DNA of 64,000 nucleotides from positions 343,542,001 through 343,606,000 of the forward strand of contig OZ024741.1 of the NCBI GenBank assembly GCA_964016885.1. Reading direction: 5' to 3'. The notes under the pieces are model-generated. The model had not been told where the DNA came from. It searched no databases and worked only from the letters and a program-made list of their open reading frames with translations. Origin of the DNA: Eledone cirrhosa. Taxonomy: Eukaryota. Both the position numbers and the translations under genes were made by a program. The number at the start of each line of letters is the position of its first letter. The first letter of the stretch is position 1. Of this stretch, positions 2,079 through 45,855 are shown piece by piece.

Positions 2079-5000
2079 ATGACCTCACTCAAAATAGGCA
2101 GCATAAATGCGCGTGGCTTGGGACGTCATGGAAGCAGAGTCACTTGCTCAACGACCTCAGGTCACTAAACATAGATGTAGTGGCCATCAGCGAGACCAGA
2201 ATCTCCGAAGCACGGGCTTTCGCACCGATCTTCGGCGGCTACGATGTGTACGCATCTCCCAGCCGTCCTGGATCGGGGGGGGGGGAGTTGCTGTGTTTTT
2301 CTGAAAGGTTTGGATCTCGCCATACGGGCCATCTTCCTGGATGCAGAGGGTAATGGTGGTGCTGGACGTGACCAGCGGAGAGGGGCAAGCTTTCAGGCTA
2401 GTGGCCGTCTATGCCCCGACAGGAGCACGGCGGCCTGATTTCTTCCGGCGTCTGAAGACCTTTCTTGGAACGTCCCGCTCTTTAGTGTTAGTGGGCGACT
2501 GGAACGGGATCTTAGATGCACGCTGGGACTGTGTGGGATTAGCGGATAGGGTGGAGGGTGCAAGAGCCTCACCAACCTGCTCAGGCGTTTTGAACTGTCT
2601 GACAGGTACCGATTGGATTTCCCGAATGTGCCAATGTGGACTTGTACAAATCGCATAGGGTCATCCAGGTCATATGTAGATAGAGTATTTTGTAGGGAAA
2701 TAGATAGGTCTAGCATAGGCTGTCCACAATTCAAGATAGTCAGCTACACGGACCACAAATTCGTGATCTGTGTGCTTGACTTAGATAGGCTTCATAGACG
2801 AGGACCCGGCTACTGGAAGCTAAACGCGTCCTGACCAGCGCGCAAGGCCTACAGAGACAGGATTAGCGAACTAGATAAGCAGGCGTTGACGGGGAGCATC
2901 GTCAACAATAAGTGGTGGTTTGCTCTGAAAAGAGCGATTAGAATAGAATCCATTAGGTTTAGTAAGGCTCTAGCAATAGAGAAAAATAGAGCAGAGGGAG
3001 AACTAGTTAGAAAATTGGACAGGGCGCTTAGCAAAGGCATCCCGACCGACGTGCTTGCGGCGAAATTGGCCCTTGACCAATTCTTCAAAGCAAAGCACGA
3101 AGGTTGCGTTGTCAGAGCTAGGGTGCGTGCTCTCAGACCCGAGGGGACGAAAGCCGTTCAATGGGCCCAAGTGGCGGAGGCGCTTCGTGGCAACAAAGCC
3201 ACGTCCGGTCTTTGGTGGACCACGACGGGCGCATGCTACTCGATCCCGGGCAAATGTGTGAAACTTTTCAGCGACACTTCGCTCAGCTGTTCGGGGGCAG
3301 CGGTGGGCCGGATCGAGGGATGGACTTTAGTGTCTACCTCGACGGACTGCCGCGGCTCTCGGCCACTGAGGCGGAGTGTTGTGAAAAGCCGATAACAGCC
3401 GCTGAAATACGGGATGCAATGACTGGCTGCACAAGGGGTAAATTGCCTGATTTGGATGGTCTGCCCTATGAACTTTACGTACAGATGCCAGACTTGTTGG
3501 GAGGCCTCTTGGCGGACGTCTACTGCAACTGGCAACAGAACGGGAGAATTCCCAGCTCTGTGAGCCGAGGAGCGGTGGTACTGCTGAGAAAGGATCCGAA
3601 CAAGGGGGCTAACATAGATAATTGCAGGCCCATAACTCTGCTAAACACAGAGTTCAAGATTTTGGCCAAGGTGCTAGCAAAGAGGTTGGCGCTTGTCGTT
3701 GGTGGTCTGGTGGGAGAGGCGCAGACATGCGCCATTCCCGACAGATCCATCCACGACAACCTCGACCTCATGCGATACATCGTAGAGAGGGTAGCTAGGG
3801 AACCTGGCACGGGTGGGTCTTTGATAAATTTAGATCAGTCGAAAGCTTTCGATAGGGTCGACCATCGTTACCTAGCGGCAGTATTGAGTGCGGCTGGCTT
3901 TGGGCCCGTCTTCAGAGGCTGGATCGCTGCCATGCACAGCGACAGCTGCTCTGTGGTGAGAGTGAACGGTCACCTTTCGGAACCGTTCAACATCATGCGC
4001 TCGGTCCGCCAAGGATGTCCCTCTCGTCTCTCTTGTATGTATTGACTCTCGAGCCATTACTGCACAAACTGGAGACGTTGAGGGCGTTCCCGCGCGAACT
4101 AGTATGCGGAAGATCCGTGTCAGCATATGCGGACGATGTCACCGTAGTGGTGTCGAACGCCAAACACATCGAGGCGATCGGCACTACACTAAGAGAATAC
4201 GAAGCGGTGACAGGAGCAATGATCAACCAGGAAAAATCAGTGGGCCTGCAGCTCGGCACCTGGTGAGGCAGGTCGATGCCGTCCAACAGCGTCGTCGGGC
4301 GCTGGACAGACGGACCGGTTAAATTGCTAGGGGTCTGGTTCGGTTCGGACCTCCAGACGGACAAAAACTGGGACGAGGTGACGAGCAGGGTGGCTTCTCT
4401 CACCCAGAAATGGGCGGAGAGGAAGCTATCCCTGAAAGGTCGAGCGGAGGTGGCTAACGCGTACATCGCGTCCGTCATCTACTACCGCCTGACCGTCGTA
4501 CCTTGTCCTAAGCCCCGCCTGACTGCGCTGGAGCGTTTGCCCTTTCGCTTTTTATGGAAGGAACGCGCTCCGATGGTCAGGCGGTCCATCTGCTGTCAAC
4601 ACCCGCTACGTGGAGGGCTGGACATGCCGTGGCTGATGATGGCCAGACACACGCTCAGGCTGCGACATCTCCACCTCTTCCTCGACGGTGATCAGGTGTG
4701 GTCGCCGTTTGCTAGACACGTCTTTCCCCAGCTCGTCTCCTTGACGGAGCTGCAGTCTGGGTCAAGCGAAGACCGAGAGGGAGCGCTTGGAAACTGGAAT
4801 GTTTTCAGGCGCTCACAACCCTCGACCAATCGGTCAATGTGATCGGTGGAAACTCCACCTTGGCGTTCTATAGAGGATTAGTGGAGGGGAAGAGCGACGA
4901 TGTACTTGGAGAAACTCTAGGCGTCGACGAAAATCAACTAGCCAATCTCTTCTGAAGGTCTCTCGGGCCGGGGCCTATGGACAACTTCCAGAAATCCCCG

Positions 5001-5492
5001 GTCTGGCAGTGCTACCGGGGAGCTTTGCCAGTTCGGGATAAACTTTACAGGCATGGAGGTGCCGTCAGCTGGGCATGTCCGAGATGCGCCCAGGGCGACG
5101 AAACCGTCCTGCACGCACTCGTCCAGTGTCCGAGCATTGCTGACTCGTGGGTTTATGTCGAACACCTGCTGTCACGTGTAGGACCGATCCGGCTATCAGC
5201 TGAGTCCATCGTGAGGATTGCCTCGCCCTCTGCCTTTAGCCGGGAAGAGCAGGCAGATTTTATCTGTCTGGTAGCCATGGCGAAAGAGATAGTATGGTGG
5301 ACACGTTTGAAAGGGCTGAAGACGAGCACTTACATCTTCGGTGATGCCCTGATTAACTTTTTCAAATGTCATTTGAAAAGGAAAATCAGGGTAGAGAGGG
5401 AAGTACTCTCTTCCCAGCATTTTGTTGAAAGATGGGTGAGAGAAGCAAGTATGGCCCGAGTGAATGGGCCTACTCTGAGTATGTGTCTGTAA
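2079..5492 (+). pseudogene. Tx1 ORF2: AP endonuclease, reverse transcriptase, zinc finger
   Basis: MTSLKIGSINARG start; DVVAISET, VYAP, LVGDWN and YTDH APE motifs; RPITLLN, LDQSKAFDRVDH, VRQGCP and AYADD (YADD 4126-4137); CPRC...ETVLHALVQC. Split over several frames. Confidence 0.9.
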
Positions 5493-5795: not shown

Positions 5796-8700
5796 AGTTG
5801 CATTTATCTTGCTTTATGTTCATACGAGTTATCACCAAGTCACAACCAGTGACCTCAAGAGACAACAAGGTCCGCCATGTTCAAGAAAGAACATACATAC
5901 TCACACATGCATCTTTAATGTTTAGACTTGTGATGTACTTATATTGACAGAATCTTCCTTAGTATATGGGCAGTTCCCATTAGTACTATCTTTTGTATTT
6001 CTCCTATACGCGGGTTTCCTGGGATTTGCGATAAGTAATCATTAGACCCCTTAGGTATCATTCCCAGAGCGCCTACAACCACTGGTATTGTTTTAGTTCT
6101 CAATTTCCACATTTTTCCAATTTCTATCTCCAGGTCCTTATACTTGCTCAATTTTTCAAATGTTTTTATAGATACATTCTTGTCTATTGGAACAGACATA
6201 TCAATTAGCAGGCATACCCTCTTTTTAAAGTCCTTCAATATTATATCAGGTCTATTTGCATCTATTTTTCGGTCTGTTTGGATGCTGAAGTTCCACAAGA
6301 TTGAGATGTGATCTTTTTCAAGTATGGGAGGTGGTTGATGCTCCCACCAATTCTTTTGATGGGGAAGGTCAAAATGCTTACACATTATCCAATGTATGTA
6401 TTGTGCAGCTCTGTCATGCCTGTTTAGGTATTCGGTTGGAGCTATAGGACTGCACATTGAAATTACATGGTCAATGGTCTCTGGTTCTTTTTTGATATTA
6501 ACGGCATAATGGGCTGCATCCATTTTTTATTATGTTGGCTTGGTAATTTTTTGTTGGCAGAAACTGATCTTGTGCTGATATAATCAGTCCTTCAGTCTCC
6601 GATTTCAGTTCAGAGGATGCCAACAACTGATGGGTTAATGTTTTGTCAACATCAGGATTGTTAGCTCGCTCTGGGTATTTTCCATACAGAGGCTTTTCTT
6701 GCCATTTCTTAGCCAGTTTCTGTAGCAGTTCTTTCTTTGCAGTTACTTTTACCTGCTTTGCTTTTTCTGTGTTTTCCATTTCAGCAGTAAATGGGACTTC
6801 TGAAATGTGTAGTCCATTACTGTATCTTTGTGCATCTTTTGTAATGGAATATGATCTTTTGATGCTTTCGTGTTTCAAAACGAGTTTGATCATCCAATCA
6901 TGTGATTCCCTTAGATATGTAGATAATCCAATTGTTGCAGTTTTCAACGCATTGTCTAACTGGATTAAACTACGTCCTCCTTCTTTCTCAGGGAGATATA
7001 TTCTATTTATATCTGCCTTAGGGTGATGCATTCTGTGCATGGTTAAGAATTTTCGAATTTTTGTATCGAGCCTACGGATCTCTGTGCTTGACCAGTTGAT
7101 GACATTGTAACTGTAGGTTACTACTGGTATGGCAAGCGTGTTTATGGCATCGATCCTATTCCTTGCATTCAATTCCGTTCTTAAGATTGCTGTTACTCTG
7201 CGGTAACATTCCTTCCTTATCCTTTCCCTCATTGTCGAGTGCTTGATTCCGTCTCCTTCACAAACACCTAGATATTTGTAAGTTTTTTCTTGATCAAGTT
7301 CTCTTATCACGTTCCCCCGATCAAGATTAAAGTCTGAACTCTTCAGCAGCTTTCCTCTGGTGAACGTTGCTTTGGCGCATTTATCTAGTCCAAACTCCAT
7401 CATTTTAATGTCATCACTGAACTGCCCCACAGTGGATAATAGCCCTTGCAATTGTTCATCATTTTTTGCAAATAGTTTCAGGTCATCCATGTAGAACAAG
7501 TGATTAATGGTTTTGTCATAGGCTTTATATCCATTTTTTGTTTCATTGAGCATTTTACTTAATGGTATAAGTGCGATGCAGAATAAAAGCGGTGATAAAG
7601 AGTCACCCTGAAAAATTCCACAATTAATATTAACTTCTCCAGCTTCCAGTGATTTTGTTTCACTATTCAAAAGGAGTGTCGTTTTCCATGTCTTCATACT
7701 GAATGACAAAAACCTCCTGACAACGGGGGATATTTTGAAAATCTCTAAACATTTTTCAATCCAACTGTGTGGCAAACTATCGAATGCTTTTTTATAATCT
7801 ATCCAAGTAATCGATAGATTTTTGTGTCTATTATGACAATCTCCCAGTATCATTTTGTTAACCAGAAGCTGATCCTTACAGCCATATGAGCCTCGTTTAC
7901 ACCCTTTCTGCTCAATGGGAAATAGGTCATTTGTTATCAGGTGGTCATATGTGTATTCAGTTAGGACTGATGTTAAAATTTTATACATTGTGGTCAAGCA
8001 AGTTATCGGTCTGTAATTTCTGGGATTGTTTGTCTCATCATTCTTCGGAAGCAGGAATGTAATGCCGTTAACTAGCCATGAAGGTATCTTTTCTGGCTCC
8101 TTAACTATTTCATTGTAAAGTTGGGCTAACAGCTCATGAGACTCTGTGAAGGCATTTATCCAAAAGTTTTGTATTTTGTCTTTTCCTGGGGATTTCCATT
8201 TGCTGGTTTTTCTTAGAGCCAAGCGCAACTGTTCAACTGTTATATTTTCCCATGTTTGTTCCTCAAGGTGAGCTGTATCTTTCATTTGTCTGTCTATCCA
8301 TGGGGCATGTATGTTATGAACTTTTTCTTCGGCCCAGATCTTTTCCCAGAATTCTTGCACTTCCTCCTTGGGTGGTATTGATTTAGCAGTTATTGTTGAC
8401 TTACCAATTTTTCTGTAGAAGTTTCTTTGGTTGTTTTTGAACATATTATTGTCCTTATAGAATCTAGATCGTTTTTCAAAGCGCATTATACGAGCAGCTT
8501 TGGCCGACACTTTTTGCTTGATTATTTCTATCAGCATGTCTATGTCACATGTTGATTTTATACTGTACTTTTTTTTCAATTTTCTAAGTTTAATTTGTTT
8601 AATATGTTCACCTACTTTATAGTTTGTTAAAATTTCTATGTCAGATCGGAGAAGGTTTATTTGGCGATTGATGTTCTCTTGCCAAGTAGATTTCTTGTGG

Positions 8701-9780
8701 GAATTCCTTTGTATTTTCATCTTCACTCCACATAAGTGAGTGGTGACTTTAGCCGATGCATAATAGAGATGATTTAAATCAGTAATGTTTAGTTTGTTTG
8801 TGATGATAATGTTTTTGAGAATTATGTTAGTCTTGTGTATTATCTTTTGGTTCTGTTTGGAGTTCTGGATCTTAGGGAGGGTGTCTCGTTGCCCCATGTC
8901 AGATTCTTTCATTTTCATCCATTCGATCATAATTTCATCCTTCAAGTTGGCAAGTTCATTCTCATTCATTTCTTTATCATTTACGATCTCATTATTTTCA
9001 TTTGGAGTTTCATCCTGAGCATGCACTCCCTCCACTTTTTCGATCCTTTCTTTAATTTGTTCTGTTGCCAGTGATTCCGCCCCGCCCCAACCCTGGGATT
9101 CGAAGTGTTACAGTTTACCTCGTTTTCACTGACACATGTTTCATTTTCCCTTCGCTGACTTTGTGCTAATAGCTTGATCTGATCAATTTCTATATCAGTT
9201 AGTAACGTTTTCCTTACAATATTTCTTCGTATATTGGCTAAGTTTGTTACTGTCAATATAGCCTCTGTTTTCGGGATGTTTCTTTTTCCAGTTGATATAT
9301 GTCTGTTCTGTATTCGATGTATTTGATGGCTAGTACATGGCAGTGTAGAAAGCCTCAAGGACTTCTTTATTATCTTCCCTTGACCATTTTTCTCTCTTTT
9401 TCTTTGGATTTCTTGGTGGTGAGCATGGAGGGCCAACAGTAGGAGTATTCCGGTTATGGGAGGTCTCCAGCTCCGAAGTGATGGGAAGGTTTGAACCATT
9501 AGCTGATTTTTCGACCCCAGTCTGGTTCCTCTCTGAGGGACGCCGCCCTTTTTTACCCGGGTGACGGCCGATCCGGTATGAGATTTAATCATTAGACATT
9601 TACTTTATTTTGTCGCGTTTTATCCTTATCCGCCAAGGGGTAATCATTTCGTGTTACCACTTCTAGAACGAGTGTCAACTAAGACTAGAGGGGCCGTTCT
9701 CCCCTAGAGACACGGCTATTCCCCGCCGGCCGCCATCCCGGTATTTCTTGGTCACGGGGTTTTCTTTTTGTTGTTTTTTT
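5794..9780 (-). mobile_element. Dong/R4-clade RLE non-LTR retrotransposon (copy 1), near full length
   Basis: A single ORF broken by frameshifts (9592-8981, 9035-6498, 6523-5939). RT motifs DYKKAFDS, GIFQGDSLSPLLF and FYMDDLKL; CCHC (CR..ETIDHVISMC); RHD; RLE RPDIIL...IDMSVP...KLSKY. The 3' end runs into (TAA)n. Confidence 0.9.
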
Positions 9781-9979: not shown

Positions 9980-12780
9980 CCTTGAATCTCAGTCATTGAT
10001 GTTGGTTAACTGGAAAGTCCGTTGGAATGAATATCAAGCCACTACCTGCAGCCTCAGATATTCAGGACGTATCGGAGGGTTCTTGCTGTTCCAAGCAAGC
10101 ATGCCTTTTGAAGCGTTCCAAAAAGCGTGAAGGGGCCGATTTTCTTTAACCATCCCTGGAAACTTTTGGAGATAGTCCCCAGTGCGCCTATGACAATCGG
10201 GATCACTTTGACTTCATGGCAGTTCCAAATCCTTTTCACCTCCCACTTTAGGTCCTGGTATCGGTTAATTTTCTCCCTCTCCTTCTCTTGCACTCACGTG
10301 TCGAAAGGGCAGGCCACATCCACAATCAGACACGATCTTTTTTCTTTGTCCACAACCACCAGGTCAGGTCTATTGTGTTCCAGTTTTTTGTCCGTCTGTA
10401 TCCTAAAATCCCACAGCACCTTCACCTGATTGTTCTCCATCACCGCCTGTGGCCTATGCTCATACCATTTCTCAGAATGTGGTAAATTGTTTACTTTGCA
10501 CAGGTGCCAGTGGATCATCCTGCCCATCACATCGTGTCTCCAGCCCTTATAGTGGGTCTGGGCTAGGTGTTTACACTCGGACACAATGTGAGCCACAGTC
10601 TCCTCTCTCTCTCCACAGATCCTGCACTGTGGGCTAGCCTCCTCCTTGTAAATATGGTGCTTCAACCACTTCGTTTTGAGGGCCTGCTCCTGCGCAGCCA
10701 TTAGCATTCCTTCTGTAGCCTTTTTGAGGTCTCCTCTTCTCAACCAGTTCCATGTCTGTGGATCTCTAAATTCAGTTTTCTCAAAGAAGGTACTATGAAG
10801 GGATTTTCCCTTAAGGCTGCTCTTCCTCCTTGATGTTATTTCCTCCTTGGACATCCCCTGGCCTACTGTCCCCTCCTTCAGTACAGTTCTGAACATTGGC
10901 TCCTTACTATAGGTCACGTATTTGTATAGGTTGTTTTTCTCCATCTGAACACAGTCCTCTATGCTGATAAGACCTCTTCCACCCTCAGATCTCCTTAGGT
11001 AGAGTCTATCGACATCACTCCTCTTGTGGAACATGTTGTAGATAGTCAATAGCTTCCTAGTCTTCCTATCCATTTCTTTTTTTAGCAACATTCCATCTCA
11101 GAATTCCCGCACTGTACCTAATAATAGACACAGCTCGGGAATTTACTGCGCTTATGGCATTTCTGCTGTTCAGATGTGACTTCAATACACTCCTTACTCT
11201 CCGAATGTATTCAGTTCTTAACAATTCCTTCATTTTTTTGTTCTTTATGCCATCAGCCTCCAGAACGCCCAAATACTTGTATCCTTCCTCAGAGTCAATT
11301 TCCTTTATCATCTCACCTGTTGGTATATGGATCCCGTTACTTCTGCTCAACCTACCCCTCCTCATCACAATGACTCCACATTTACTAATACCAAACTGCA
11401 TACATATATCACTGCTGAAAATACGGACAGTGTTAACAAGCACATCCAACTCCTTCTCACTTTTCACGAAGAGCTTAAGATCGCCCATGAAGAGGAGGTG
11501 ATTGATGTTAAGCTCTCCCTTTCCCAACTTGTATCCTGCTCTCACTTTTCGCAGCATAATGGTCAAGGGCATCAGGGCAAGGACAAACAACAGAGGGGAC
11601 AGGCTATCTCCCTGGAAGATACCTCTCTTGATCTTCACGCTTCCCAAGGATACTCCAGTTGATGTCAACTCTGTCTCCCAAGACCCCATACTCCTGCCCA
11701 GCAACTGTCTGATGTTATCTGCCACCCTGAATATCTCCAGGCTTTTGGTGATCCAAGAATGAGGCACCATGTCAAATGCCTTTCTGTAGTCTATCCATCC
11801 TATGGCAAGATCAGTGTGTCTCCTCCTGCAATTCCCCATTACCATCTTATCAATAAGTAACTGGTCCTTTGTACCACGTGACTTCTTTCGGCATCCTTTC
11901 TGTTCGTCCGGTAACAAGTTGTTTGTGTGGAGGTGATGGTAGATTTCTTCAGACACAATGCTCGTCAACAGTTTCCACATTACGGACTGACATGTGATAG
12001 GTCTATAGTTGGTAACATCATTACCCTTGATTCGGTCTTTCATTATCAGAACTGTGGTACCTTTTGTCAACCACTCTGGCACCTCACCCGACACCAAGCA
12101 GTCATTGAACATGGCCGTCAGCTTCGGGTGGAGGGATGTTAAATTTTTAATCCAATACCCCTGCACACCATCTGGGCCTGGTGATTTCCAGTTGGTTAGT
12201 TTTTTGGCCTGCCCATTAAGAGTTTCAACTGTGATACTCAAATCAGTTTGTTGGTGTGCCTGCTCACCGAACTCCCTCTGTACTGTCTCAATCCACCCTG
12301 CCTGGACATTATGTCTAACACCCTGCTCCCATATTCCTCTCCAGAATGTTTTAGTTTGCTCCGCCCCAGGGATCAAGTCGTTGCCTCTTTCTTTCCCCTC
12401 AAGCTGTCCAAACAGCATCTTCTGGTTGTTGTCGAACATGCGGTTCTGTTTATACTGACTGACTCTGTTCTCGTATCGCCTGATTTTTGCACTCTTTGCT
12501 ACAATGCGTTGCTTCAGTTCCTCTATGATAATATTTAGCTTTTCCTCCTAGTTTTGTACTTTATTTCCAGTCTATTTTTAGTGCCTATGTTTTTTAGTGT
12601 CCCATTCAGTAGTGACTCAAGCTTTCCTATGTCATTTCTCATTTCGCTGATTTGACCACTCAGTCGTTTCTTCCACCACGGCTCTGCTCTTTCTTGTCTG
12701 TTGTTTCCTCTCGCTTTTATACCAAGTAGTTTCCTCACCGTATTTGCTGTTGCTTTGAGGATATTGTTGCACTGGTGAAC
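9980..12780 (-). mobile_element. Dong/R4-clade RLE non-LTR retrotransposon (copy 2, different family), 5'-truncated
   Basis: RT motifs DYRKAFDMVPH, GIFQGDSLSPLLF and LFMGDLKL (catalytic D lost); CRICG..ETVAHIVSEC; RHD; RPDLVVVD..DVACP; EKINRYQDL. Flanked on both sides by (TAA)n (9944-9978, 12781-12846). Confidence 0.9.
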
Positions 12781-16890: not shown

Positions 16891-17167
16891 CATATATATT
16901 TACATATATATATATGTGTTTATGAGTGTATATATGTGTGTGTTTGTTTTTCTAACCAATCAATACTGAGGTGAGTACAATTGTGTCTCTACTTCACCAA
17001 TATAAGCATTATAAAATAATATTAGTCTTAGACTAATATTGTGTTTACCTGACTAAATAAATTATTTCTAGTTACATACTTAATGCTCCCTGCATTAAAC
17101 ATTTTAATATCATCATAAGTACAAAATTGTTCCTGCAAATGGCGTCTTTATGTAATATCAATCATAA

Positions 17168-17268
17168 TAATTGTTTCTACTTTTGACACAAGGCCAGCAA
17201 TTACCCAATGCATTACTGGTACTTTATTCTATCGACCCCGGAAGGATGAAAGGCAAAGTTAACCTCGC
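17168..17268 (-). mobile_element. 5'-truncated Deu/Nin-type SINE with TSD
   Basis: Core TTTGCCTTTCATCCTT.CGGGGTCGATA. TSD TAATATCAATCATAATAA at 17153-17170 and 17270-17287. Confidence 0.85.
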
Positions 17269-17302
17269 CTAATATCAATCATAATAATACGCCTTAGTAA
17301 TA

Positions 17303-17460
17303 ATAATTGTTTCTCATATAGGCACTAGGCCAGCAATTTTGGGGGGAGGGGAAAGTCGATTAAATCGACCCCAGTGCATTGGTGGTGCTTTATTTATTCG
17401 ACCCCGTATGGATGAAAGGCAAAGCTAACCTCGGCGGGATTTGAAATTAGAACGCGGGCG
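17303..17460 (-). mobile_element. Deu/Nin-type SINE, longer subfamily, partial
   Basis: Same core and tail, with an extra GGGTCGATTTAATCGACTTT segment. Confidence 0.8.
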
Positions 17461-17463
17461 CAC

Positions 17464-19270
17464 TTAAAACAGTAATGGGTGAGTTTGGAAAAAAGCGAGA
17501 AGTGACGAGGTCAGAAGAGAGGATACGGAAGGCACGGAGGATATGTCGCCGGAGTGGTAGGGTGATGGAGTGGTAGGTGAGAAGGAAAGGAAGACGGATG
17601 TTGGGAAGGCGTTATTGAGGTGAGAGGGCTGTGGTGCGGTCTGTTTCACGGGCGCGGGTGAGAACAGCTTGGATCAGGGTGGGGGCATATCCACGCTGGA
17701 TGAAGCAGGAAGCCATGGGAAGGGAATGCGTTTCGAAATCGTCGTCCTTGCTACAGAGTCGACGAAGACGGAGGAATTGGGAATAGGGTATGGTGTGTTT
17801 GGTGTAGGTTGGATGGGTGGAGGTGAAGTCGAGGTAAGATTGCGAGTCTGTTGGTTTAATGAATACGGAAGTAGAGAGGGTGTGATGAGAGTGATTAATA
17901 GATAGAGAGATATCAAGAAAAGCGACACAAGAATCTGAGACGGAGGTGGTGAAATTGAGAGCAGTTCTAAATCTAAAAAATGTTGGAGAACGTGGAGGCC
18001 GTCATCATGAGGGATGAGGGTATAGAGAGAGGTGATGTCCAGAGTAAAGAGAAGGTGGAAGGGACCAGGAGGGAAGGAGAAAGAGTTGTAGAGTCTGAGG
18101 GCATGATTTTTATCATGGATAATGCGGGAGGGGAGATTGCCGACCAACGGAGCGTGGATGGTGTCTAAATATTCAGAAATTATCTCGGTGGGGAACTTGC
18201 ACGCAGAAACGATAGCACGGCCAGGATTATTTTGTTTGTGTATTTTTTTTTGGGGGGGGGGAGTAGATGGTGGGTGTGCGAGGGTGCATGCAATAAGGTT
18301 GGTGGCTCTGGGGTTATAGGAGAGAGGAGGAGATGAGCTCGTGGATGGTGGAGGACACGAGTTGTTGGTAACCAGGAGTGGGGTCCGAGGATAAAGAGCG
18401 GTAAAAAAGGGTATTGTGAAGGTGGCGGAGAGCCTCAGCCCTATAGAGGTCAGCGCTCCAAACCACCACAGAGCCACCTTTGTCAGCGGGTTTGATGACA
18501 CTGTCATCATGACGCCGAAGGTTGCGAAGAGCGGAGATCCCAGTCCGCATGATGTTAGAGCGACGAGAATGCTGGTGGAAACGGAACCGATTCACAGTAC
18601 GCCGGCAAGTATCGACAAAGGAGTCGAGGCCGCTGAACTGGCCAGAGCTCGGGTTCCAATGTGATTGCCGGCGACTGAGACGAGTGAAGTCATCCATCCA
18701 TATCGATGATGGCGTGTCGTGAAAAAAAGCTTTCAACTTTAATCGACGGAAGAACCCTTCAATCTCGGAACGGGTGCGGAACTCGTCGCAGGTAGATGTG
18801 GTTGGTATAAAACGCAAACCACGAGCGAGGAGGGGGCGCACAGCTTCGGAGAGTGGTAGGTCCTGGGGTATGGTGACTACTGTGCAGGGACGTGAGGTAG
18901 TTAAAGAGGCAGAGGCGGAGGGGTCAGGGTGGTTGGGCAAAGCGTGTGCAGTTTCAGTGGTGGGGAGAGGAAAGGGGGGGGGTAGGTGATGGGATAGATG
19001 GGTTAGGGTTGGAGGTGATATAAGTATGGGTGGTGACGGCAGGCGGGGAGCGGAGAGAGTTGAGTTTATGTTTTTTACGGAAGTGAGGAAATTGAAAAGG
19101 AGGCGATTGAGGTAAAGGATGAATTGGATAATGGTTTGGGCGAGGAAAGGATGGCAAGTGAAGGAGAGATGGAGGTAGGCCTTGGGGAGATCTCGGTCGA
19201 GAGAACGGATTTGGGCGAGAGTTGATCGAATGGTCGCGCGCATGAGCTGGCGAGAGGAGCGCCTAAGGAT
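17464..19270 (-). mobile_element. Penelope-like retroelement ORF remnant (RT)
   Basis: LLARGLRFIPT, FFRRLKLKAFF, VIKPADKGGSVVVW, PGRAIVS and LFTLDITSLYTLIPH motifs. An internal deletion is followed by the thumb KPTDSQSYLDFTSTHP..IPYSQFLRLRRLCS in another frame. Confidence 0.9.
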
Positions 19271-19646
19271 GGACTAAATTAGATTTTTAGCATGGTAATA
19301 AATAGCCTAACTTTTCAAGGGTATGTATATATATATATATATACTTTGGTTTGCATATCTGTCTGTCGAAATGTATAATTTTCTGTAGAATCTGGTACAA
19401 TTATATCCCGTTAAATCTGCAAGTAATTGTTGAAATTTGCCAAATAGATTTATCGTATTAAAATGCTGAATTGCACTAATATTTCACATGTTTCATATTT
19501 TGTTTTGTGAGGGAAGTATCTATATTGCTAGTATTATTGAAGATTCTGACCACACATGTAAAAAAAAATCTACATTTTTTAGCACTGAGCTGAATATGTT
19601 CACGAATGTATAATATATAGATGATTTAAAATTAATATTTCAGAAA

Positions 19647-19838
19647 ATAATTGTTTCTACTTTTGGTACAAGGTCAGCAATCACCCAGTGCATTACAGGT
19701 ACTTTATTTTATCGACGCCGTAAGGATGAAAGGCAAAGTTAACCGCGGGGGGATTTGAACGTAGAATGGCAAGGGCCGTTACTATATGCGTCAAAGCATG
19801 GCGTCCGACCCTCTACCGATACTGCCAATCCACCGCCC
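19647..19838 (-). mobile_element. Full-length tRNA-derived Deu/Nin-type SINE with TSD
   Basis: A box TGGCAGTATCGG, B box GTTCAAATCC and the Deu/Nin core. TSD TTTCAGAAAATAAT at 19638-19651 and 19839-19852. Confidence 0.9.
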
Positions 19839-19855: not shown

Positions 19856-19986
19856 AATAAACATATGAAACAATCACAGGGGATAATCTGTAAAAGTGTG
19901 TAAGCACACACAGCTATGTGGGTAACATAGCTCTGTGTGCTTACACACTTTTACAAATTATTCCGTCATTGCTTCATATGTTTATT
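19856..19986. repeat. ~130 bp near-perfect palindrome (fold-back)
   Basis: AATAAACATATGAA...TGTAAAAGTGTGTAAGCACACACAGCTATGT, loop, ACATAGCTCTGTGTGCTTACACACTTTTACA...TTCATATGTTTATT. Confidence 0.9.
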
Positions 19987-20159
19987 TTAGATATATATAT
20001 GTCAATCAATTTCTAGTTGATATAAAATGCTCGGATCTATTCATTGGAATCTTGGAGCATATTTTACAGTGGATATGGCGCATGTCTCTCTGACATGACA
20101 CCCTTAATTTAATTTAAATGTTGTATATATATAAATATATATAGATACATACATACATA

Positions 20160-21012
20160 AAATACAATCTGTTGAAAAGGTAACACACTAGAGAGAGATA
20201 GTGCGCCATCAATAAAACAGGGAAAACCACCAGTGTAAGGAGTCTATAATCTATGGAAGGCAGGGTAGACACACAATAATTAAAAATAAATATTAAAATG
20301 TATATACGCACCTCTATAACTATATAACACACGCGTACAAATCCAAAGACATCTGTTTCGCCAGGAAGTTGTTGACTGAAATGGAATCGCCTATGACTCA
20401 TCAGCGCGTGCAAGACTATACATTTCAGACAACTCTAAGAGAATCTAAAGGGACCGTCCAGCTACACGCGGCAGAGAGATGTCACAGCGTGTTTAGGGCA
20501 GTGAACCGGTGGTGTCTGGGGGACGAGCTGCTAGAAAGGGCATCCCAAAAACCACTCGAAGTGTGCTCAACCAAACAGAGAGATAGGAAAGATTGTTATA
20601 AGGAGCGAAATATCACGATAAATTAACGGAGCCATAGACTCTCGTTATTCCCTGTCAATAATGTGCTCAAAAGAAAAGGAATCCTGAGCTCTTTAAAATA
20701 CAATATGTTGAGGAAAGGTAACACACTAGAGAGAGATAGTGCGCCATCACTAAAACAGGGAAAACCATCAGTCAATGGAATCTATAATCTATGGAAGGCA
20801 GGGTAGACACACAATAATTAAAAATATAAATTAAAATGTATATACGCACCTCTATAACTATATAACACACGCGTACAAATCCAAAGAGATCTGTTTCGCC
20901 AGGAAGTTGTTGACTGAAATGTATTTTAAAGAGTTCAGGATTCCTTTTCCTTTGAGCACATTATTGACAGGGAATAACGAGAGTCTATGGCTCCGTTAAT
21001 TTATCGTGATAT
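20160..21012 (-). mobile_element. Non-autonomous mini-PLE: partial tandem pseudo-LTRs with inverted tail
   Basis: Direct repeat 20160-20383 / 20696-20921 (~540 bp period), inverted repeat 20609-20701 / 20921-21012, hammerhead in the complete repeat. Confidence 0.75.
20330..20410 (-). ncRNA. Canonical type I hammerhead ribozyme
   Basis: CACGCG-CUGAUGA-GUCA...UGGC-GAAA-CAGAU(8 nt)AUUUG-UA-CGCGUG: intact core, 6 bp stem I, 5 bp stem III, GUA triplet. Confidence 0.85.
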
Positions 21013-21027
21013 ATATATATATTTCAT

Positions 21028-21264
21028 TTCAGAACAAAGGAGAGGCACAAAACAAAGAAAAGAATCCCCAGTCACTGAAGAGGTCACAGAATGTGTGACG
21101 AAAGAACTATGACTATATATGAACAACCGTCCGGTTGTGGAACCAACCAACCAACCAACCGGAAATTTATAAATTTTTAAATTTATATTTTAATTTATAA
21201 TAAATTGGAGTGAAAGCAACTGGTGCGTGTGTTTCTTATTGGCAACATGACATTCCGAAAGCAT

Positions 21265-21272
<8 letters not shown>
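21028..21272 (+). mobile_element. PLE pseudo-LTR fragment in (TA)n
   Basis: Inverted homologue of 24806-25042. Contains a hammerhead and ends GGCAACATGAC...AACAATAT into (TA)n. Confidence 0.75.
21070..21114 (+). ncRNA. Minimal type I hammerhead ribozyme
   Basis: AGUCA-CUGAAGA-G-GUCAC(7 nt)GUGAC-GAAA-GAAC-UA-UGACU, with 5 bp stems I and II and a vestigial stem III. Confidence 0.75.
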
Positions 21273-21307
<35 letters not shown>

Positions 21308-23264: not shown

Positions 23265-23520
23265 TAATTGTTTCTACTTTTGGCACAAGAGCAGCTATTT
23301 GAATGGAAGGGAAAAGTCGATTAAATCGACACCAGTTCGTTACTGGTACTATATTTTATCGACCCCGTAAGGACGAAAGGCACTGTTAACTTCGGCAACA
23401 CCAGTTCGTTACTGGTACTATATTTTATCGACCCGGTAAGGATGAAAGGCACAGTTAACTTCGGCAGGATTTGAGCTCGGAACGTAAAGAGACGTAGTTA
23501 TCTGACGCAAAGAATATAGT
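23265..23520 (-). mobile_element. Deu/Nin-type SINE with ~70 bp internal tandem duplication
   Basis: ACACCAGTTCGTTACTGGTACT...GTTAACTTCGGCA occurs twice (~23329-23397 and ~23398-23466). Confidence 0.8.
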
Positions 23521-24768: not shown

Positions 24769-24799
<31 letters not shown>

Positions 24800-24805
24800 G
24801 TATAT

Positions 24806-25620
24806 ATATTGTTATACTTTGCGAGGGTCATGTTGCCAATAAGAAACACACGCACCAGTTGCTTTGACTCCAATTTATTATAAATTAAATTTATAAATTT
24901 AAGAATTTATAAATTTCCGGTTGGTTGGTTCCACAACCAGACGGTTGTTAATACATTGTCAAAGTTCTTTCGTCACACATGCGGTGACCTCATCAGTGTC
25001 CGAGGATTCTTTTCTTTGTTTTGTGCCTCTCCTTTGTTCTGTCCTACAAGATCTTGTTTTTGTGTGTGTCGTGTGCTTAGTTTGCGCATGTGTTACATCC
25101 GGGTGTCTGTGTGTGTTTTTATTTGTTTATTTATTTGTTTATTTGCATGTTACTAGTTGGTTGTTCTATGTGTATGTGATTTCATTTTGTCCTTAATTGT
25201 AAGTTGTGATGTTGCTATTCCATTCATGTTTTATATTTAATTTTGGTTGGAGTTCATTTATGCTCATTGTCTCTGTGATTTGTCTTTTCTAACATTATGT
25301 CTTTTCTGTGTGTAGATTTCATTTTTGTTTCTATGTTCTCTAATGTGCCCTTATGTTCTATTTTCGCATGTTGGTGGAGTACTGATGATTCTTTTCTATC
25401 TTGAAGCTCTCGCCAGTGTTCATTTAATCGTTCTCCTATACTACGAACTGTCTCACCTATGTACACTATATTCTTATTTTTACATTGTCCCTCAGTACAT
25501 CTTATGCTATATACTATGTTTCTAGTTTTGCAGTTAATATGACTCCCCAAAGTATAACAATATCAGTTTCAACACACGTTTTTAGATAAAGAATCTTGCT
25601 AAACAAATTCAGAAACGGAA
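24806..25620 (-). mobile_element. Penelope-like element 3' part: GIY-YIG remnant, pseudo-LTR, inverted tail
   Basis: ORF 25550-25254 [14 protein letters not shown]...C...VYIGETVRSIGERLNEH (GIY-YIG), hammerhead at 24957-25001, (TA)n on both sides. Confidence 0.85.
24957..25001 (-). ncRNA. Minimal hammerhead ribozyme (same family as 21070)
   Basis: GGACA-CUGAUGA-G-GUCAC(7 nt)GUGAC-GAAA-GAAC-UU-UGACA, with stem I partly mutated. Confidence 0.6.
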
Positions 25621-26006: not shown

Positions 26007-26034
26007 AATGAACGCTCACATACTCAAACAGTTT

Positions 26035-26092
26035 TTATTTGCTTACGATGTTTCATCCATACCGTTGGGTAGGAATCATCAGAGCTTAATAA
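26035..26092 (-). ncRNA. Hammerhead-like motif
   Basis: UUAUUAAGCU-CUGAUGA-UUCCUACC(CAAC)GGUAUGGAU-GAAA-CAUCG-UA-AGCAAAUAA. Confidence 0.6.
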
Positions 26093-26409
26093 ACACAGTG
26101 TTGACTATAAGCTCTACCAAGCTTAGTCACACGAAGAATCGGAATACAATAGCGGGAAAATATGGGCAGATCGGAGATGGCGAACAAGGAGAGGGTGCAT
26201 GTTGGGGTCATTAAGCACCACAGCTAAATGCTAGGGCACAAGCAGATCTCACAAGATGCAGATACAATTGATGGCACACAAAATAAAAAAATACAAACAA
26301 CGGTTAAAACATAATAAAGAAGTAAAGGGTAGATAATATAAAGAGATAAAAAGTGAATAAAAAGTGAAAAAGGTAAAAGATAAAAAAAAAATTGTTTTTA
26401 AAAGAAGTG

Positions 26410-26592: not shown

Positions 26593-27439
26593 AGAGAGTT
26601 TTAAGCACATAAAAAAGCCAGAGGAATTTAAGCGCTGGTCCCTATATAAGTGAATAGGGTCTCAGTAACTTATAATTATATAAGCACTAATATGTTCTTA
26701 AGGTACATCCAGAAAGACAACAGCAATTAAAATCTCCATGGTATACATACACAAGGTATACTGGTATGTAGCTGAATTACGTAGCTCCAGGGTGCTCCAC
26801 AAGTACATAGACAGGCAACACATAAATGCAAGCTATACATAAGCGGAGTCGGGTTATTACAGGATAGAGCAGAGTATAACAAGTATATAGACAGGCACCA
26901 CAAATAAAGCAAGCTATACACAAGCAAAGAGGGGCTACTATAAGATAGAGCTGCAGCAATAGCCCCACAATATTATTTCAGTTACTGTAAAACCAACTGG
27001 CAAAGAGTTACTGCACATGTATATTAACCGCATAGGCTAGACCAATCGGTCACATATGTTCCGATTGTTAACAATATAGCTTTTATTAGTACGAATTTGT
27101 CGAATTAGTATGAGGTTCTGTTGGTGATTAAATATTATTTTTTTTACTTATTTTTATTTTGTTTGCAGTCCGAATTAAATAACCCTATAGATGACAAATT
27201 AAAGTAGTCCCCCTTTATTTACCAATTTTACGTCATTATTATTTGATGACTGAAAACGTCATCAATAGATGTGCATCTTGTGAGATCTGCTTGTGCCCTA
27301 GCATTTAGCTGTGATGCTTAATGACACCAGCTTGTACTCTCTCCTTGTTCGCCATCTCCGATCTCCCCATATTTGCCCTCTATTGTACTCCGATTGATCG
27401 TGTAACTAAGCTTGGTAGAGCTTATACTCAGCACTGTGT

Positions 27440-27496
27440 TTATTAAGCTCTGATGATTCCTACCCAAAAGTATGAATGAAACATTGTAAGCAAATA
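27440..27496 (+). ncRNA. Hammerhead-like motif (inverted partner of 26035)
   Basis: UUAUUAAGCU-CUGAUGA-UUCCUAC(CCAAAA)GUAUGAAU-GAAA-CAUUG-UA-AGCAAAUA. Confidence 0.6.
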
Positions 27497-27906
27497 TAAA
27501 CTGTTTGAGTATGTGAGCGTTCTTTGGTTTCTTTTACATATAACGGCTCTGTTCTCGTACATTGAGCTAATACAATACCGTCAACATATAATACGGTGCG
27601 TGTGTGTTTATATACATGCACTCCGTGCTATACGTACGTAAATAAATATATATATATGTATATATATTGCGGCTTCTTTGGATTCCGTTTGGATTCTTTT
27701 GTATTCCGTTCAAACAAAATAATTTAGTGGCCCTCTCCACCAGCTCATCACGTGGTAGTATGTTTTAACCCTGAAGGTGGATAGATGGCATGTTGTGCTA
27801 TTAGCGATTGTTTTAAAGGTGAGAATTATCGGCATAGTGATTGGGGGACATGTAGTTCAACACAAATTCACACTCTTTTCACAAACTGATCCGATCGCAT
27901 TCTCTC

Positions 27907-28500: not shown

Positions 28501-28534
28501 AGGAGCCACTGTTGCAACCATTATCAAAGAGAAC

Positions 28535-28720
28535 GGTGGATTGGCAGTATCGGTAGAGGGTCGGACGCCATGCTTTCCAGCATAGTTACGTCCCTTTACG
28601 ATCTGAGTTCAAATCCCGCCGAGGTTGACTTTGCCTTTCATCCTTACGGGGTCGATAAAATAAAGTACCAGTAATGCACTGGGTAATTGCTGGCCTTGTG
28701 CCTAAAGTAGAAACAATTAT
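28535..28720 (+). mobile_element. Full-length Deu/Nin-type SINE with TSD
   Basis: A and B boxes, core, and a 15 bp TSD ATTATCAAAGAGAAC at 28520-28534 and 28716-28730. Confidence 0.9.
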
Positions 28721-30702: not shown

Positions 30703-30897
30703 AGGGGCGGTGGATTGGCAGTATCGGAAGAGGGTCGGACGCCATGCTTTGACGCATACAGTTACGGCCTTTGCCATTCTGAGTTCAAATCCCGCCGAGC
30801 TTAACTTTGCCTTTCATCCTTACGGGGTCGATAAAATAAAGTACCAGTAATGTACTGGGTAATTGCTGGCCTTGTGCCAAAAGTAGAAACAATTATT
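30703..30897 (+). mobile_element. Full-length Deu/Nin-type SINE with TSD
   Basis: 20 bp TSD AATTATTATGAGTAATATTT at 30682-30701 and 30891-30910. Confidence 0.9.
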
Positions 30898-31044
30898 ATG
30901 AGTAATATTTTATTTATATTTTTGATATTATAGTTTTGTATATTATATCTATCTTCATTTACTATTGTTTGTTCATCCTCACAATTGCACCCACATGTCT
31001 TTGATACTATGAAGCAACACAATCCATAACACTAATATATTTTT

Positions 31045-32795: not shown

Positions 32796-32891
<96 letters not shown>

Positions 32892-32931
32892 CGATATTAA
32901 TAAATGGAAACTATATTTATAAAACCATATT

Positions 32932-32997
32932 TATTTCATTATACATATTTCAGGGGATACCAAATTAAATTATAGTATGCCTTCATCAGACAAAATA
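32932..32997 (-). ncRNA. Type I hammerhead ribozyme
   Basis: Inverted copy of 33704-33768. Confidence 0.75.
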
Positions 32998-33703
32998 CAA
33001 TATATAACAGTTTTACAAATAAGCTTTGACGTACCCTATTAAAATGCAACCATTGTTTTTGGAAGCCATCCGGATAGTGATTTTCAGGACGTGCGTGTAT
33101 ATATATATATATATATATTTGTGTGTCTTTGCCTGAGATACTGACTTCTCTAGCAATGTGTACATTTTGGATATTAAACCCAAATTTTGGTATATTGATC
33201 TCAAGGTTTAAACTAAACATATAGTCATTATTAAACAATGTTTAATGTCTCATATTATATATTTATGTCCCATTCATGAATATTAATATTTATATTTTTA
33301 TTATTCATTTCATATGAATTGTTAACTCAACTTAATATGACATGACGTAAAGTTTTCATAATCTCCCTCTCTCTATATAATATTTCTCTCTCTTGAGTTT
33401 TTCTATCTATCTGTTGACTTAATATCTCTCTGTTGCTTTCCTCTGTTTTTCTTATTTCTTCCTTTTTTCTTCTTTCTTCCTTTCCTCCTGTCTTTACTTA
33501 TCTCTTTCTTTTTTCTCCATGCATCTCTCTCTCTCTCCGATATTTCTCCACGTTTTTCTTTCCCTCCCTCTTTTTCTAATTGTCCTTAACACTATGACTT
33601 ATTAAAGTAATATAAACAAATCACTATCCGGTTGGCTTCCAAAAACAATGGTTGCATTTTAATAGGGTACGTCAAAGCTTATTTGTAAAACTGTTATATA
33701 TTG

Positions 33704-33768
33704 TATTTTGTCTGATGAAGGCATACCATAATTTAATTTGGTATCCCTGAAATATGTATAATGAAATA
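33704..33768 (+). ncRNA. Type I hammerhead ribozyme
   Basis: UAUUUUGU-CUGAUGA-AGGCAUACCA...UGGUAUCCCU-GAAA-UAUGUA-UA-AUGAAAUA: 8 bp stem I, extended stem II, self-complementary stem III (dimer type). Confidence 0.8.
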
Positions 33769-33896
33769 AATATGGTTTTATAAATATAGTTTCCATTTAT
33801 TAATATCGTATATCTACTCCAAATACTTGTCGAGTGCTTTATATCAGTTATAAAAATATTTCCTTGTTGTATCCCAACAATTTTAAATAGAACTTT

Positions 33897-38349: not shown

Positions 38350-38782
38350 TGTGTATGTATATAAATATATATATATATGTGTATGTATATATATATATAT
38401 GTGTGAAGAGAAAGAGAGAAAGCGAGAAAGCGACAGAGAAAAATAGATAGATAGATAATAGATATCCATATATATATATATGGACGCCCATATATGCACA
38501 CACATGCACACACATACTCAAAATATGATATATTGCACATAGACCCGTTCATACGTACTGATACGCACAATCATACAGTATATATGTATGTATCCATATA
38601 TGTGTGTGTGGGTGGAGCATGCGCGCGCGTGAGCCTGTAAAATAATATGTTGTTTATTCTACTGTACACAGATTTGGTTACATAATACATAATTTATCTA
38701 TATTGAATGCCTGCGCATATGGTCTTATGAATATGTATATCTCTATCTTTGTATATTATATGTCTCTTTCTCTCTGAGTATT

Positions 38783-38969
38783 GGATTGGCAGTATCGGTA
38801 GGGGTTCATACGCCATGCCTTGACGCACAGAGTTACGGCCCTTGCCATTCTGAGTTTAAATCCCGCCGAGGTTAACTTTGCCTTTCATCCTTACGGGGTC
38901 GATAAAATAAAGTACCAGAAAGTGCACTGGGATAATTGCTGGCCTTGTGCCAAAAGTAGAAACAATTAT
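38783..38969 (+). mobile_element. Deu/Nin-type SINE
   Basis: Same consensus as the other copies, with an imperfect TSD ATTATATGT(C/G)TCTTT. Confidence 0.85.
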
Positions 38970-43273: not shown

Positions 43274-43345
<72 letters not shown>

Positions 43346-43384
43346 AAAGTTAATTTATATATATATATATATAGAGAGAGAGGG

Positions 43385-44048: not shown

Positions 44049-44140
<92 letters not shown>

Positions 44141-44145
44141 GTATG

Positions 44146-44179
<34 letters not shown>

Positions 44180-44600: not shown

Positions 44601-45390
<790 letters not shown>

Positions 45391-45656: not shown

Positions 45657-45706
<50 letters not shown>

Positions 45707-45788
45707 CACCTTCACCACTAATTGATTTTACAGGTGTCTTTAACCCATTGGTACCAAAGATTATTTAGCCAGTAATTCATGTATGTGT

Positions 45789-45855
<67 letters not shown>

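What the first reader, a model, noticed from the sequence alone, without database searches (positions are those of the whole stretch)
20160..21012. Complete ~540 bp retrozyme-like unit with a canonical hammerhead
Seen: a 1.4-mer partial tandem with a ~540 bp period, the best-formed hammerhead in the window (GUA site, all three stems), no coding capacity, and an inverted 92 bp tail at the 5' junction. The second repeat has CAGAUC/GAUUUG, which extends stem III. Inference: copied from a multimeric or circular ~540 nt RNA released by self-cleavage.
Basis: partly seen in the sequence, partly recalled or inferred. Interest (0 to 1): 0.7.

Follow-up and report, generated by a model that had tools for sequence, protein, structure and literature searches.

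The report
Hammerhead retrozyme with Penelope-type insertion
This is one ageing copy of a very common non-coding animal repeat that carries a self-cutting RNA motif and appears to have been pasted in by a Penelope-type retrotransposon; the kind is already known, and neither cutting nor an RNA circle has been shown for it.

Summary
There is a 538-bp period, 1.42 copies, one complete type I hammerhead on the minus strand (cut 20336|20335; 0 equal motifs in 60 random 64-kb windows) and a 93-bp inverted arm. Public reads show a very high-copy family in two species, with the middle segment part of it. They also change the reading. Other copies end at 20610 in (AT)n, so the 'inverted 5' tail' is the family's normal 3' end. 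The 764-bp tandem is a second cDNA, primed 84 nt further upstream from the opposite target strand and joined head to head. That is the insertion pattern of Penelope-like elements. The template(s) spanned at least 1.4 units across two cut sites, so it was a circle or an uncut multimer; DNA cannot tell which. Two of 6 inversion joints lie within 2 nt of the cut site, a hint that cleaved RNA was copied. Against activity here: the upstream hammerhead is only a 3' half, and the complete one is predicted to misfold by 9-11 kcal/mol. Verdict: a new member of the animal non-LTR retrozymes, already proposed to be non-autonomous Penelope derivatives.

The parts
20158..20921 (-). Long cDNA piece, 764 bp = 1.42 units. 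Its 3' end (20158, equivalent to 20694 in the unit) lies 84 nt short of the family's usual 3' end. It is 5'-truncated at 20921, inside loop II of the upstream hammerhead.
   Evidence: family end table 7
20920..21012 (+). Short cDNA piece, 93 bp: the family's normal 3'-terminal segment (copy of 20702-20610), joined head to head with the long piece (2-nt TG overlap) and running into (AT)n
   Evidence: loose (AT)n ends before 20610 in 38 X1 contigs, 1 X4, 2 X5
20336..20873 (-). Predicted cut-to-cut monomer, 538 nt, 41.6% G+C; as a circle MFE -138.9 kcal/mol, 64% paired, z -2.6 (1 of 60 shuffles as good)
20329..20411 (-). Complete type I hammerhead: stem I 20411-20405/20335-20329, CUGAUGA 20404-20398, stem II 20397-20394/20363-20360 with a 30-nt loop region, GAAA 20359-20356, stem III 20355-20351/20342-20338, GUA, cut 20336|20335
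   Evidence: predicted to misfold by 9-11 kcal/mol in this copy
20867..20921 (-). 3' half of a second hammerhead (part of loop II, stem II 3' strand, GAAA, 6-bp stem III, GUA, cut 20874|20873, stem I 3' strand); the CUGAUGA half is missing
20609..20610 (-). Family's usual 3' end (20610), 264 nt downstream of the cut, and the head-to-tail junction into the next unit (20609)
   Evidence: tables 2, 7, 8
20610..20693 (-). 84-nt segment present at one end of the insert (21012 side) and absent at the other (20158 side): the analogue of the Penelope 'tail'
   Evidence: Penelope tail is 30-40 bp in PMC8557442 and PMC11167929
20124..20157 (.). Left target: imperfect TA/TACA microsatellite; 2-nt TA overlap with the element
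21013..21022 (.). Right target: (AT)n; no target-site duplication can be told apart from the microsatellite
   Evidence: longest shared word is a 10-nt TA run

Best explanation
A dispersed copy of a non-coding, non-autonomous retroelement family of the animal non-LTR retrozyme kind: a 538-nt unit with a type I hammerhead, copied in trans by the reverse transcriptase and endonuclease of a Penelope-like element (PLE). Steps. (1) A tandem master locus is transcribed on the hammerhead strand [inferred]. (2) The hammerhead cuts at GUA, and monomers are probably ligated into 538-nt circles [inferred from known retrozymes; about even odds against an uncut multimer serving as template]. (3) The PLE enzyme nicks both strands of an AT microsatellite and starts cDNA inside the RNA, usually at 20610, 264 nt past the cut [fixed end and AT target shown in DNA; enzyme inferred]. 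(4) Here one strand made 93 nt from that site. The other started 84 nt further upstream and made 764 nt, passing two cut sites, and the two cDNA ends were joined by a 2-nt microhomology [geometry shown; one or two RNA molecules cannot be told]. (5) The copy has since drifted from the family majority and is probably no longer a source.
For: Hammerhead beyond chance: 0 in 60 random windows. Family: 2,907 contigs of X1, 68 of X4, 16 of X5 (another species) and 3,930 raw reads of X6 laid on 20030-20705; these counts include the flanking repeat at 20030-20117. Every unskipped bin of the unit is covered in 4 of 4 runs. Fixed 3' end: loose (AT)n before 20610 in 38 X1 contigs, plus X4 and X5. Depth peaks at 87,000 there and falls about tenfold towards the 5' side, as for 5'-truncated retrocopies. 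Unit closes on itself: X4 record 15 (20426-20705) bridges 20609|20610, and three more records in three runs stop 30 nt past it. Six of 15 listed joints change strand at varied places, so head-to-head joins are a family trait. Pairing is kept in variants: one X5 contig carries changes on both sides of the first stem II pair (G-C to A-U), and the common stem I changes (20407, 20411, 2-nt loss at 20332) keep 7 pairs. None of the 40 differences shown falls on the CUGAUGA, GAAA or GUA letters, while depth drops in loop II. Partial tandems, an adjacent inverted 5'-truncated copy, a one-sided tail and microsatellite targets are PLE hallmarks. A purified PLE protein cuts and extends both strands of AT-rich DNA and starts internally. 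Retrozymes as PLE derivatives.
Against: No cleavage, transcript or circle was observed. This copy's hammerhead fold lies 9-11 kcal/mol above the predicted minimum, with stem II pairing probability about 0 in all four linear contexts and in the circle. The locus has one complete ribozyme and so fails the two-ribozyme 'active' rule of Li et al., who found cleavage in only 1 of 9 predicted elements. The base at 10.1 is changed in most family reads (1,701 of 2,196 depth in X1; 167 of 252 reads in X6) but its partner in few (1,117 of 18,129; 51 of 376), so many copies may have a mismatch at the base of stem II; phase unknown. Only 40 of 228 differences, 21 of 374 loose ends and 24 of 3,057 pieces were shown. 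The tail is 84 nt, not 30-40. No autonomous partner with matching ends was found in the window, and no long tandem array was seen. Rfam has no hit.
Confidence: 0.75

Rival explanations
1. Same family and same PLE enzyme, but no circle: the template is an uncut read-through transcript of tandem copies, and the hammerhead is slow, protein-assisted or used only for end processing. This overlaps the best explanation except at step 2.
For: Hammerhead mutants did not change insertion by the anole PLE in vitro, unprocessed RNA was the dominant substrate, and no RNA-seq reads ended at the cut site (PMC11167929). The long cDNA reads through two intact GUA sites. Predicted misfolding here. 8 of 9 predicted Xenopus retrozymes did not cleave.
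Against: Two of 6 strand-switch joints, from different samples and with different partner points (20550, 20495), begin at 20333, at or 2 nt from the cut; chance 0.001-0.005 for a 5-nt target (post hoc; one joint has only 24 letters on its short side; a 6-bp palindrome sits at the same place). Coral, mussel and axolotl retrozymes do give circles. Stem III is a full 5-6 bp, unlike minimal PLE motifs.
Confidence: 0.4
2. The piece is the pseudo-LTR region of an autonomous PLE (terminal repeat plus start and end of a decayed reading frame), not a separate non-autonomous unit.
For: The insert architecture is that of PLE ends. A decayed PLE-like RT lies 900 bp away on the same strand. Most family depth is at the 3' end, as for truncated PLEs.
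Against: The unit closes on itself in the window and in family contigs. Depth does not fall towards 20609, and no dominant breakpoint into foreign sequence appears among the 21 loose ends shown. No conserved frame: frameshifting indels at 20222, 20332, 20494, 20551, 20577; no Pfam hit. No similarity to the neighbouring RT remnant.
Confidence: 0.12
3. A single old copy was duplicated and partly inverted at the DNA level (slippage or break repair), or the structure is an assembly error.
For: The flanks are microsatellites and other repeats; no target-site duplication can be seen; no listed contig spans the whole stretch.
Against: The arm ends exactly at the family's usual 3' end, followed by (AT)n. 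The repeats differ at 11 places, and at 6 checkable places the second copy carries the family-majority letter, which an assembly duplication would not give. Head-to-tail and head-to-head joints occur in other copies.
Confidence: 0.05

Closest known systems
Metazoan non-LTR retrozymes (Cervera and de la Pena 2020, PMC7229834, parts 2-4 of 6 read; Li, Clavereau and Pollet 2026, 10.64898/2026.07.22.740005, parts 1-3 of 5 read)
   Same: Non-coding tandem unit with a type I hammerhead, G+C under 50%, no LTR layout, many copies, stable helix III as in most invertebrate cases, PLE-like sequences in the same genome.
   Different: 538 nt, above the 170-400 nt of the invertebrate circles described in 2020 but inside the 51-972 bp range of 2026. 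Long variable loop II. One and a half ribozymes at this locus. In the parts read, neither paper describes a fixed internal 3' end, head-to-head joins or a one-sided tail for retrozyme insertions; supplements not seen.
Endonuclease-bearing Penelope-like elements and their pseudo-LTRs (Craig et al. 2021, PMC8557442, passages; Arkhipova et al. 2013, PMC3846280, passages; Frangieh et al. 2024, PMC11167929, parts 1-2 of 4)
   Same: Partial tandem, adjacent inverted 5'-truncated copy, extension at one end only, AT-rich or microsatellite target, internal start of cDNA downstream of a type I hammerhead.
   Different: No RT or GIY-YIG frame; tail 84 nt rather than 30-40; hammerhead has a full helix III rather than the usual minimal form.
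Non-autonomous Chlamys PLEs such as MRC1 (PMC8557442, passage)
   Same: Non-coding PLE derivatives with pseudo-LTRs and head-to-tail multimers.
   Different: Green-algal, and that clade lacks canonical hammerheads.
L1 twin priming and dual priming (Meyer et al. 2010, PMC2837659, passages)
   Same: Two cDNAs primed from the two target strands, the second at an internal site, joined head to head; here with a 9-nt overlap.
   Different: No poly(A) tail and no clear target-site duplication; template longer than one unit.
Plant LTR retrozymes (PMC5680766, passages)
   Same: Non-coding, hammerhead-bearing; the layout repeat-middle-repeat looks similar.
   Different: Type III ribozyme, true LTRs with PBS and PPT, 4-bp duplications, G+C 53-60%. 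Here the ribozyme is type I, G+C is 41.6% and the ends are permuted.

Membership tests
Hammerhead ribozyme, type I | Conserved core (CUGANGA, GAAA, NUH) with three helices, helix I open | tested here: met
   Rfam models did not score it; residue numbering is recalled
Hammerhead ribozyme, type I | Helices conserved by covariation | tested here: inconclusive
   One two-sided change in stem II (one X5 contig) and a compensated stem I variant, but many reads change only one side of pair 10.1-11.1; 40 of 228 differences shown
Hammerhead ribozyme, type I | Folds into the active form and self-cleaves | not testable with these tools
   The model predicts misfolding of this copy by 9-11 kcal/mol; indirect hint from 2 of 6 joints at the cut
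Metazoan non-LTR retrozyme | Head-to-tail repeat of a few hundred bp carrying a type I hammerhead | tested here: met
   1.42 units in the window; junction bridged by X4 record 15 and abutted by three more records
Metazoan non-LTR retrozyme | Non-coding, G+C under 50%, no LTR layout | tested here: met
   PBS and PPT were not searched for separately
Metazoan non-LTR retrozyme | Many genomic copies | tested here: met
   summed depth 5,000-87,000 against about 10-30 for window-specific letters in X1; not a true copy number
Metazoan non-LTR retrozyme | 'Active' locus: two consecutive units with complete hammerheads (Li et al. 2026) | tested here: not met
   This locus has one and a half; it fits their monomer-derivative class. 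Whether the family has such loci could not be tested (no genome held)
Metazoan non-LTR retrozyme | Expressed as linear and circular unit-length RNA | not testable with these tools
   Needs RNA data or a Northern blot
PLE-mobilised insertion | Partial tandem, adjacent inverted 5'-truncated copy, one-sided tail, AT-microsatellite target, fixed internal 3' end | tested here: met
   tail is 84 nt, not 30-40
PLE-mobilised insertion | Second preferred start site defining the tail | tested here: inconclusive
   20118-20169 was skipped by the read tool, and no loose end at 20694 is among the 21 of 374 shown
Autonomous PLE | RT plus GIY-YIG reading frame between pseudo-LTRs | tested here: not met
Plant LTR retrozyme | Type III hammerhead in LTRs, 4-bp target duplication | tested here: not met
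   Type I motif, no duplication

The most novel reading that the evidence does not exclude
The family makes a 538-nt circular RNA that a Penelope-like enzyme copies from a fixed internal site on both target strands, and a measurable share of insertions begin exactly at the ribozyme cut. Its thousands of junctions would then be a direct genomic record of which RNA form (cleaved, circular or uncut) is retrotransposed. That would tie retrozymes mechanistically to PLEs in an invertebrate and give the PLE-type hammerhead a visible role.
Probability: 0.3. Interest if true: 0.55.

Novelty: new member of a known kind. Interest (0 to 1): 0.33.

Why it matters
The kind is known from corals, mussels, insects, fish and amphibians. 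What is still open in the papers read is which enzyme moves animal retrozymes and from which RNA form: a 2020 review says the repeats show no motif that points to the partner, and the 2026 preprint leaves the mechanism open and covers mainly vertebrates. This family shows PLE-type ends on a retrozyme and is abundant enough that junction counts in one long-read genome could test the circle against the uncut multimer.

Tried and rejected
No whole genome is held for this window, so copy number, arrays, empty sites and the autonomous partner could not be searched. No RNA holder listed; run X4 has no library record and was not treated as RNA. Rfam: 0 hits at gathering score in 64 kb and no hammerhead among 11 weak hits. 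Exact-pattern scans found nothing: metagenome contigs 0 and 0, viral contigs 0. Earlier notes by sequence, by place and by eight words: none. One search folded the wrong coordinates; its z of -11 comes from a neighbouring palindrome and was discarded. Idea: a 12-of-13 helix between 20433-20421 and loop II (20383-20371; -13.3 kcal/mol) rescues the ribozyme as a pseudoknot. Rejected as unsupported: blocking those bases did not restore stems II and III, and 64 of 2,000 shuffles paired as well (the coordinates used for this helix were wrong). Idea: the element is the 5' repeat of the neighbouring PLE-like RT remnant. Rejected: no shared sequence and other repeats lie between. Idea: the AUG inside CUGAUGA opens a PLE frame. 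83 codons are open in one copy, with no Pfam hit, and common family indels break the frame. The bacterial promoter scan is not informative for an animal. Paper searches naming octopus or cephalopod rested on my untested guess at the host and listed only PMC8557442; a five-term pseudoknot search found none; a search for inverted, truncated retrozyme insertions listed 4 papers, none on animal retrozymes. PMC5785218 is not held and was seen only as a reference title.

Full report
1. Observation. The window is AT-microsatellite-rich animal DNA full of retroelement fragments. No tool names the host; it is coded organism A. The repeat structure is as reported. 20158-20383 and 20694-20921 are 94.7% identical over 228 columns (10 substitutions, one 2-nt indel), period 538, and 20920-21012 is the reverse complement of 20610-20702 at 91 of 93 positions. 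The minus strand carries a complete type I hammerhead: CUGAUGA at 20404-20398, GAAA at 20359-20356, GUA at 20338-20336, stems of 7-8, 4 and 5 pairs. It is the only match in the window to a strict descriptor, and 60 Markov-random sequences of the same length gave none. Rfam does not score it; the 30-nt loop II region is the likely reason (inference). The longest stop-free frames are 109 and 92 codons, and the two frames scanned gave no Pfam hit at cut-off.

2. The family. No genome is held. Four of eight listed public runs were laid on one unit plus flank, 20030-20705, at 80% likeness. 2,907 contigs of X1, 68 of X4, 16 of X5 (a second species) and 3,930 raw reads of X6 were laid; these counts include a different high-copy repeat in the flank. 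All 28 unskipped bins have depth in all four runs; 20118-20169 was skipped. In X1 the summed depth over the unit is 5,000-87,000, against about 10-30 for letters private to this locus. That suggests hundreds to thousands of copies, though the tool warns that this is no copy number. X1 and X4 come from one study, which may be the source of the window; X5 and X6 come from two others. The middle segment belongs to the family: X1 record 5 (20271-20592), X4 record 11 (20292-20550) and X5 record 21 (20223-20639) join it to the hammerhead.

3. Where copies end. Loose ends before 20610 read (AT)n in 38 contigs of X1, 1 of X4 and 2 of X5. Depth peaks at 87,000 just inside 20610 and falls to about 10,000 on the 5' side of the unit. 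On the hammerhead strand, 20610 is therefore the family's usual 3' end, 264 nt past the cut, and most copies are 5'-truncated. Long copies run straight into the end of a preceding unit. X4 record 15 bridges 20609|20610 with more than 31 letters each side. X1 record 8, X4 record 16 and X5 record 21 stop 30 letters past it, just under the tool's bridging rule; that pattern is expected at a branch in an assembly graph (inference). No array longer than the window's own was seen, as the contigs are short.

4. Re-reading the locus. The arm 20920-21012 ends at the 20610 equivalent and runs into (AT)n, so it is a normal 3' end in plus orientation, 93 nt long. The 764-bp piece starts at the left flank at the 20694 equivalent, 84 nt upstream on the RNA, and overlaps the arm's sequence by 9 nt. 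The two 5' ends meet at a 2-nt TG overlap. This is the geometry of twin or dual priming (PMC2837659, passages). It is also the standard PLE layout: a partial tandem, an adjacent inverted 5'-truncated copy and an extension at one end only (PMC8557442, PMC3846280, passages). A purified anole PLE protein cuts and extends both strands of AT-rich DNA and starts cDNA at two internal sites that bound the tail (PMC11167929, parts 1-2 of 4). The tail here is 84 nt rather than 30-40, and whether 20694 is a preferred second start could not be seen. Six of the 15 joints listed change strand, at varied places, so such joins are a family trait. If one RNA served both primers it was at least 848 nt, 1.58 units; the long piece alone crosses two GUA sites. 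No target-site duplication can be separated from the microsatellites.

5. Is the ribozyme real and working? For it: none of the 40 differences shown (of 228) lies on the core letters, and depth drops in loop II, where family variants diverge. One X5 contig changes both sides of the first stem II pair (20397 and 20360, G-C to A-U). The common stem I changes (20407, 20411 and a 2-nt loss at 20332) keep seven pairs (read by hand). Against it: across reads 20397 is changed far more often than 20360 (X1 depth 1,701 of 2,196 against 1,117 of 18,129; X6 167 of 252 against 51 of 376), so many copies may be mismatched there. In this copy the hammerhead fold is 9-11 kcal/mol above the predicted minimum and stem II has pairing probability near 0. 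A 12-of-13 helix between the 5' flank and loop II did not rescue it in the model. At least 15 positions of the laid stretch differ from about 90% or more of X1 depth, so the copy is roughly 3% or more drifted. At 6 checkable places the second copy carries the majority letter. This fits identical units decaying after insertion, but a homogeneous tandem transcript would look the same.

6. Circle or multimer. DNA cannot settle this. One hint favours cleavage in vivo: 2 of the 6 strand-switch joints start at 20333, in different samples and with different partner points. X4 record 11 shows that its piece lies on the 3' side of the cut. In the 2-nt-loss variant that position is the cut itself; otherwise it is 2 nt away. 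The chance is 0.001-0.005 for a 5-nt target. The test is post hoc, one joint has only 24 letters on its short side, and a 6-bp palindrome at the same place is an alternative cause (palindromes at PLE inverted junctions). Against a needed role for cleavage, hammerhead mutants did not alter insertion by the anole PLE and uncut RNA was its main substrate.

7. Comparison. It works like a PLE-mobilised non-autonomous element and meets the sequence-level definition of an animal non-LTR retrozyme. Coral, mussel and axolotl units of 220-390 nt make circles (PMC7229834, parts 2-4 of 6). A 2026 preprint finds families of 51-972 bp, relates Xenopus ones to PLE pseudo-LTRs, and saw cleavage in 1 of 9 tested (parts 1-3 of 5; supplements not seen, and they may describe insertion ends). 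This locus fails that preprint's rule for an active copy (two complete ribozymes) and is best called a dispersed derivative. It is not an autonomous PLE and not a plant-type LTR retrozyme. A decayed PLE-like RT lies at about 17450-19290. Atlas features match DUF8422 (0.98) and HTH_animal (0.97) clusters, both with low recognition scores, and Pfam RVT_1 scores only E 0.26. Its assignment to PLEs rests on a recalled DKG motif, and it shares no sequence with the unit. Earlier scan notes list similar animal retrozymes; they were not checked and are not support.

8. Verdict. The feature is real and of a known kind: a new member, interest 0.33. The useful additions are the fixed internal 3' end, the two-strand priming geometry on a retrozyme, and the hint of 5' ends at the cut. 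All three can be tested in one long-read genome.

Noticed in passing
window 17450-19290, minus: Decayed, frameshifted Penelope-like RT remnant (DKG motif recalled; Atlas DUF8422 0.98 and HTH_animal 0.97, Pfam RVT_1 E 0.26); no shared sequence with the unit.
   Followed up: partly
window 21030-21307 (+) and 24770-25041 (-): Inverted pair, 89% identical, of another repeat with a CUGANGA...GAAA core ending in (TA)n; one copy starts 17 bp from the right end of the finding.
   Followed up: no
window 32883-33083 (-), 33618-33817 (+), 61927-62073 (+): Inverted pair 98% identical, plus a third copy, each with a small complete type I hammerhead (AUA site, 2-bp stem III): the usual PLE inverted-end layout.
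   Followed up: partly
window 26007-26273 (-), 27260-27525 (+); 28294 (-): A further inverted pair (91%) with a hammerhead-like core, and a minimal hammerhead-like motif at 28294.
   Followed up: no
window 44139-56544: About 3.7 tandem copies of a 3.3-kb unit, 97-99% identical, each with a 295-codon frame resembling the C-terminus of a non-LTR retrotransposon (recalled), an internal 190-bp inverted pair and a CUGAUGA word; real array or assembly effect not tested.
   Followed up: no
window 20030-20117: The left flank is itself a very high-copy repeat (X1 depth up to 77,000; present in all four runs), next to the TA run.
   Followed up: no
window 19856-19986 and 43263-43356: Palindromes of 131 bp (86%) and 94 bp (perfect).
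   Followed up: no
window 19609-19838, with copies near 17154-17454, 23265-23496, 28534-28720, 30705-30932, 38782-38969: Short interspersed repeat, 85-94% identical between copies.
   Followed up: no
window 20433-20421 with 20383-20371, minus: 12-of-13 complementary stretch between the 5' flank and loop II of the hammerhead; the upstream repeat is truncated exactly at the edge of the loop strand (20921 = 20383). Weak against shuffles (64 of 2,000).
   Followed up: yes
window 20641-20629, minus: Small 5-bp hairpin 19 nt before the family's 3' end, a candidate cue for the internal start of cDNA; untested.
   Followed up: no
window 2835-5492, 5939-9107, 10294-12547, 56605-59713: Long, partly broken frames of other non-LTR retrotransposons (identified by eye, not searched).
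   Followed up: no
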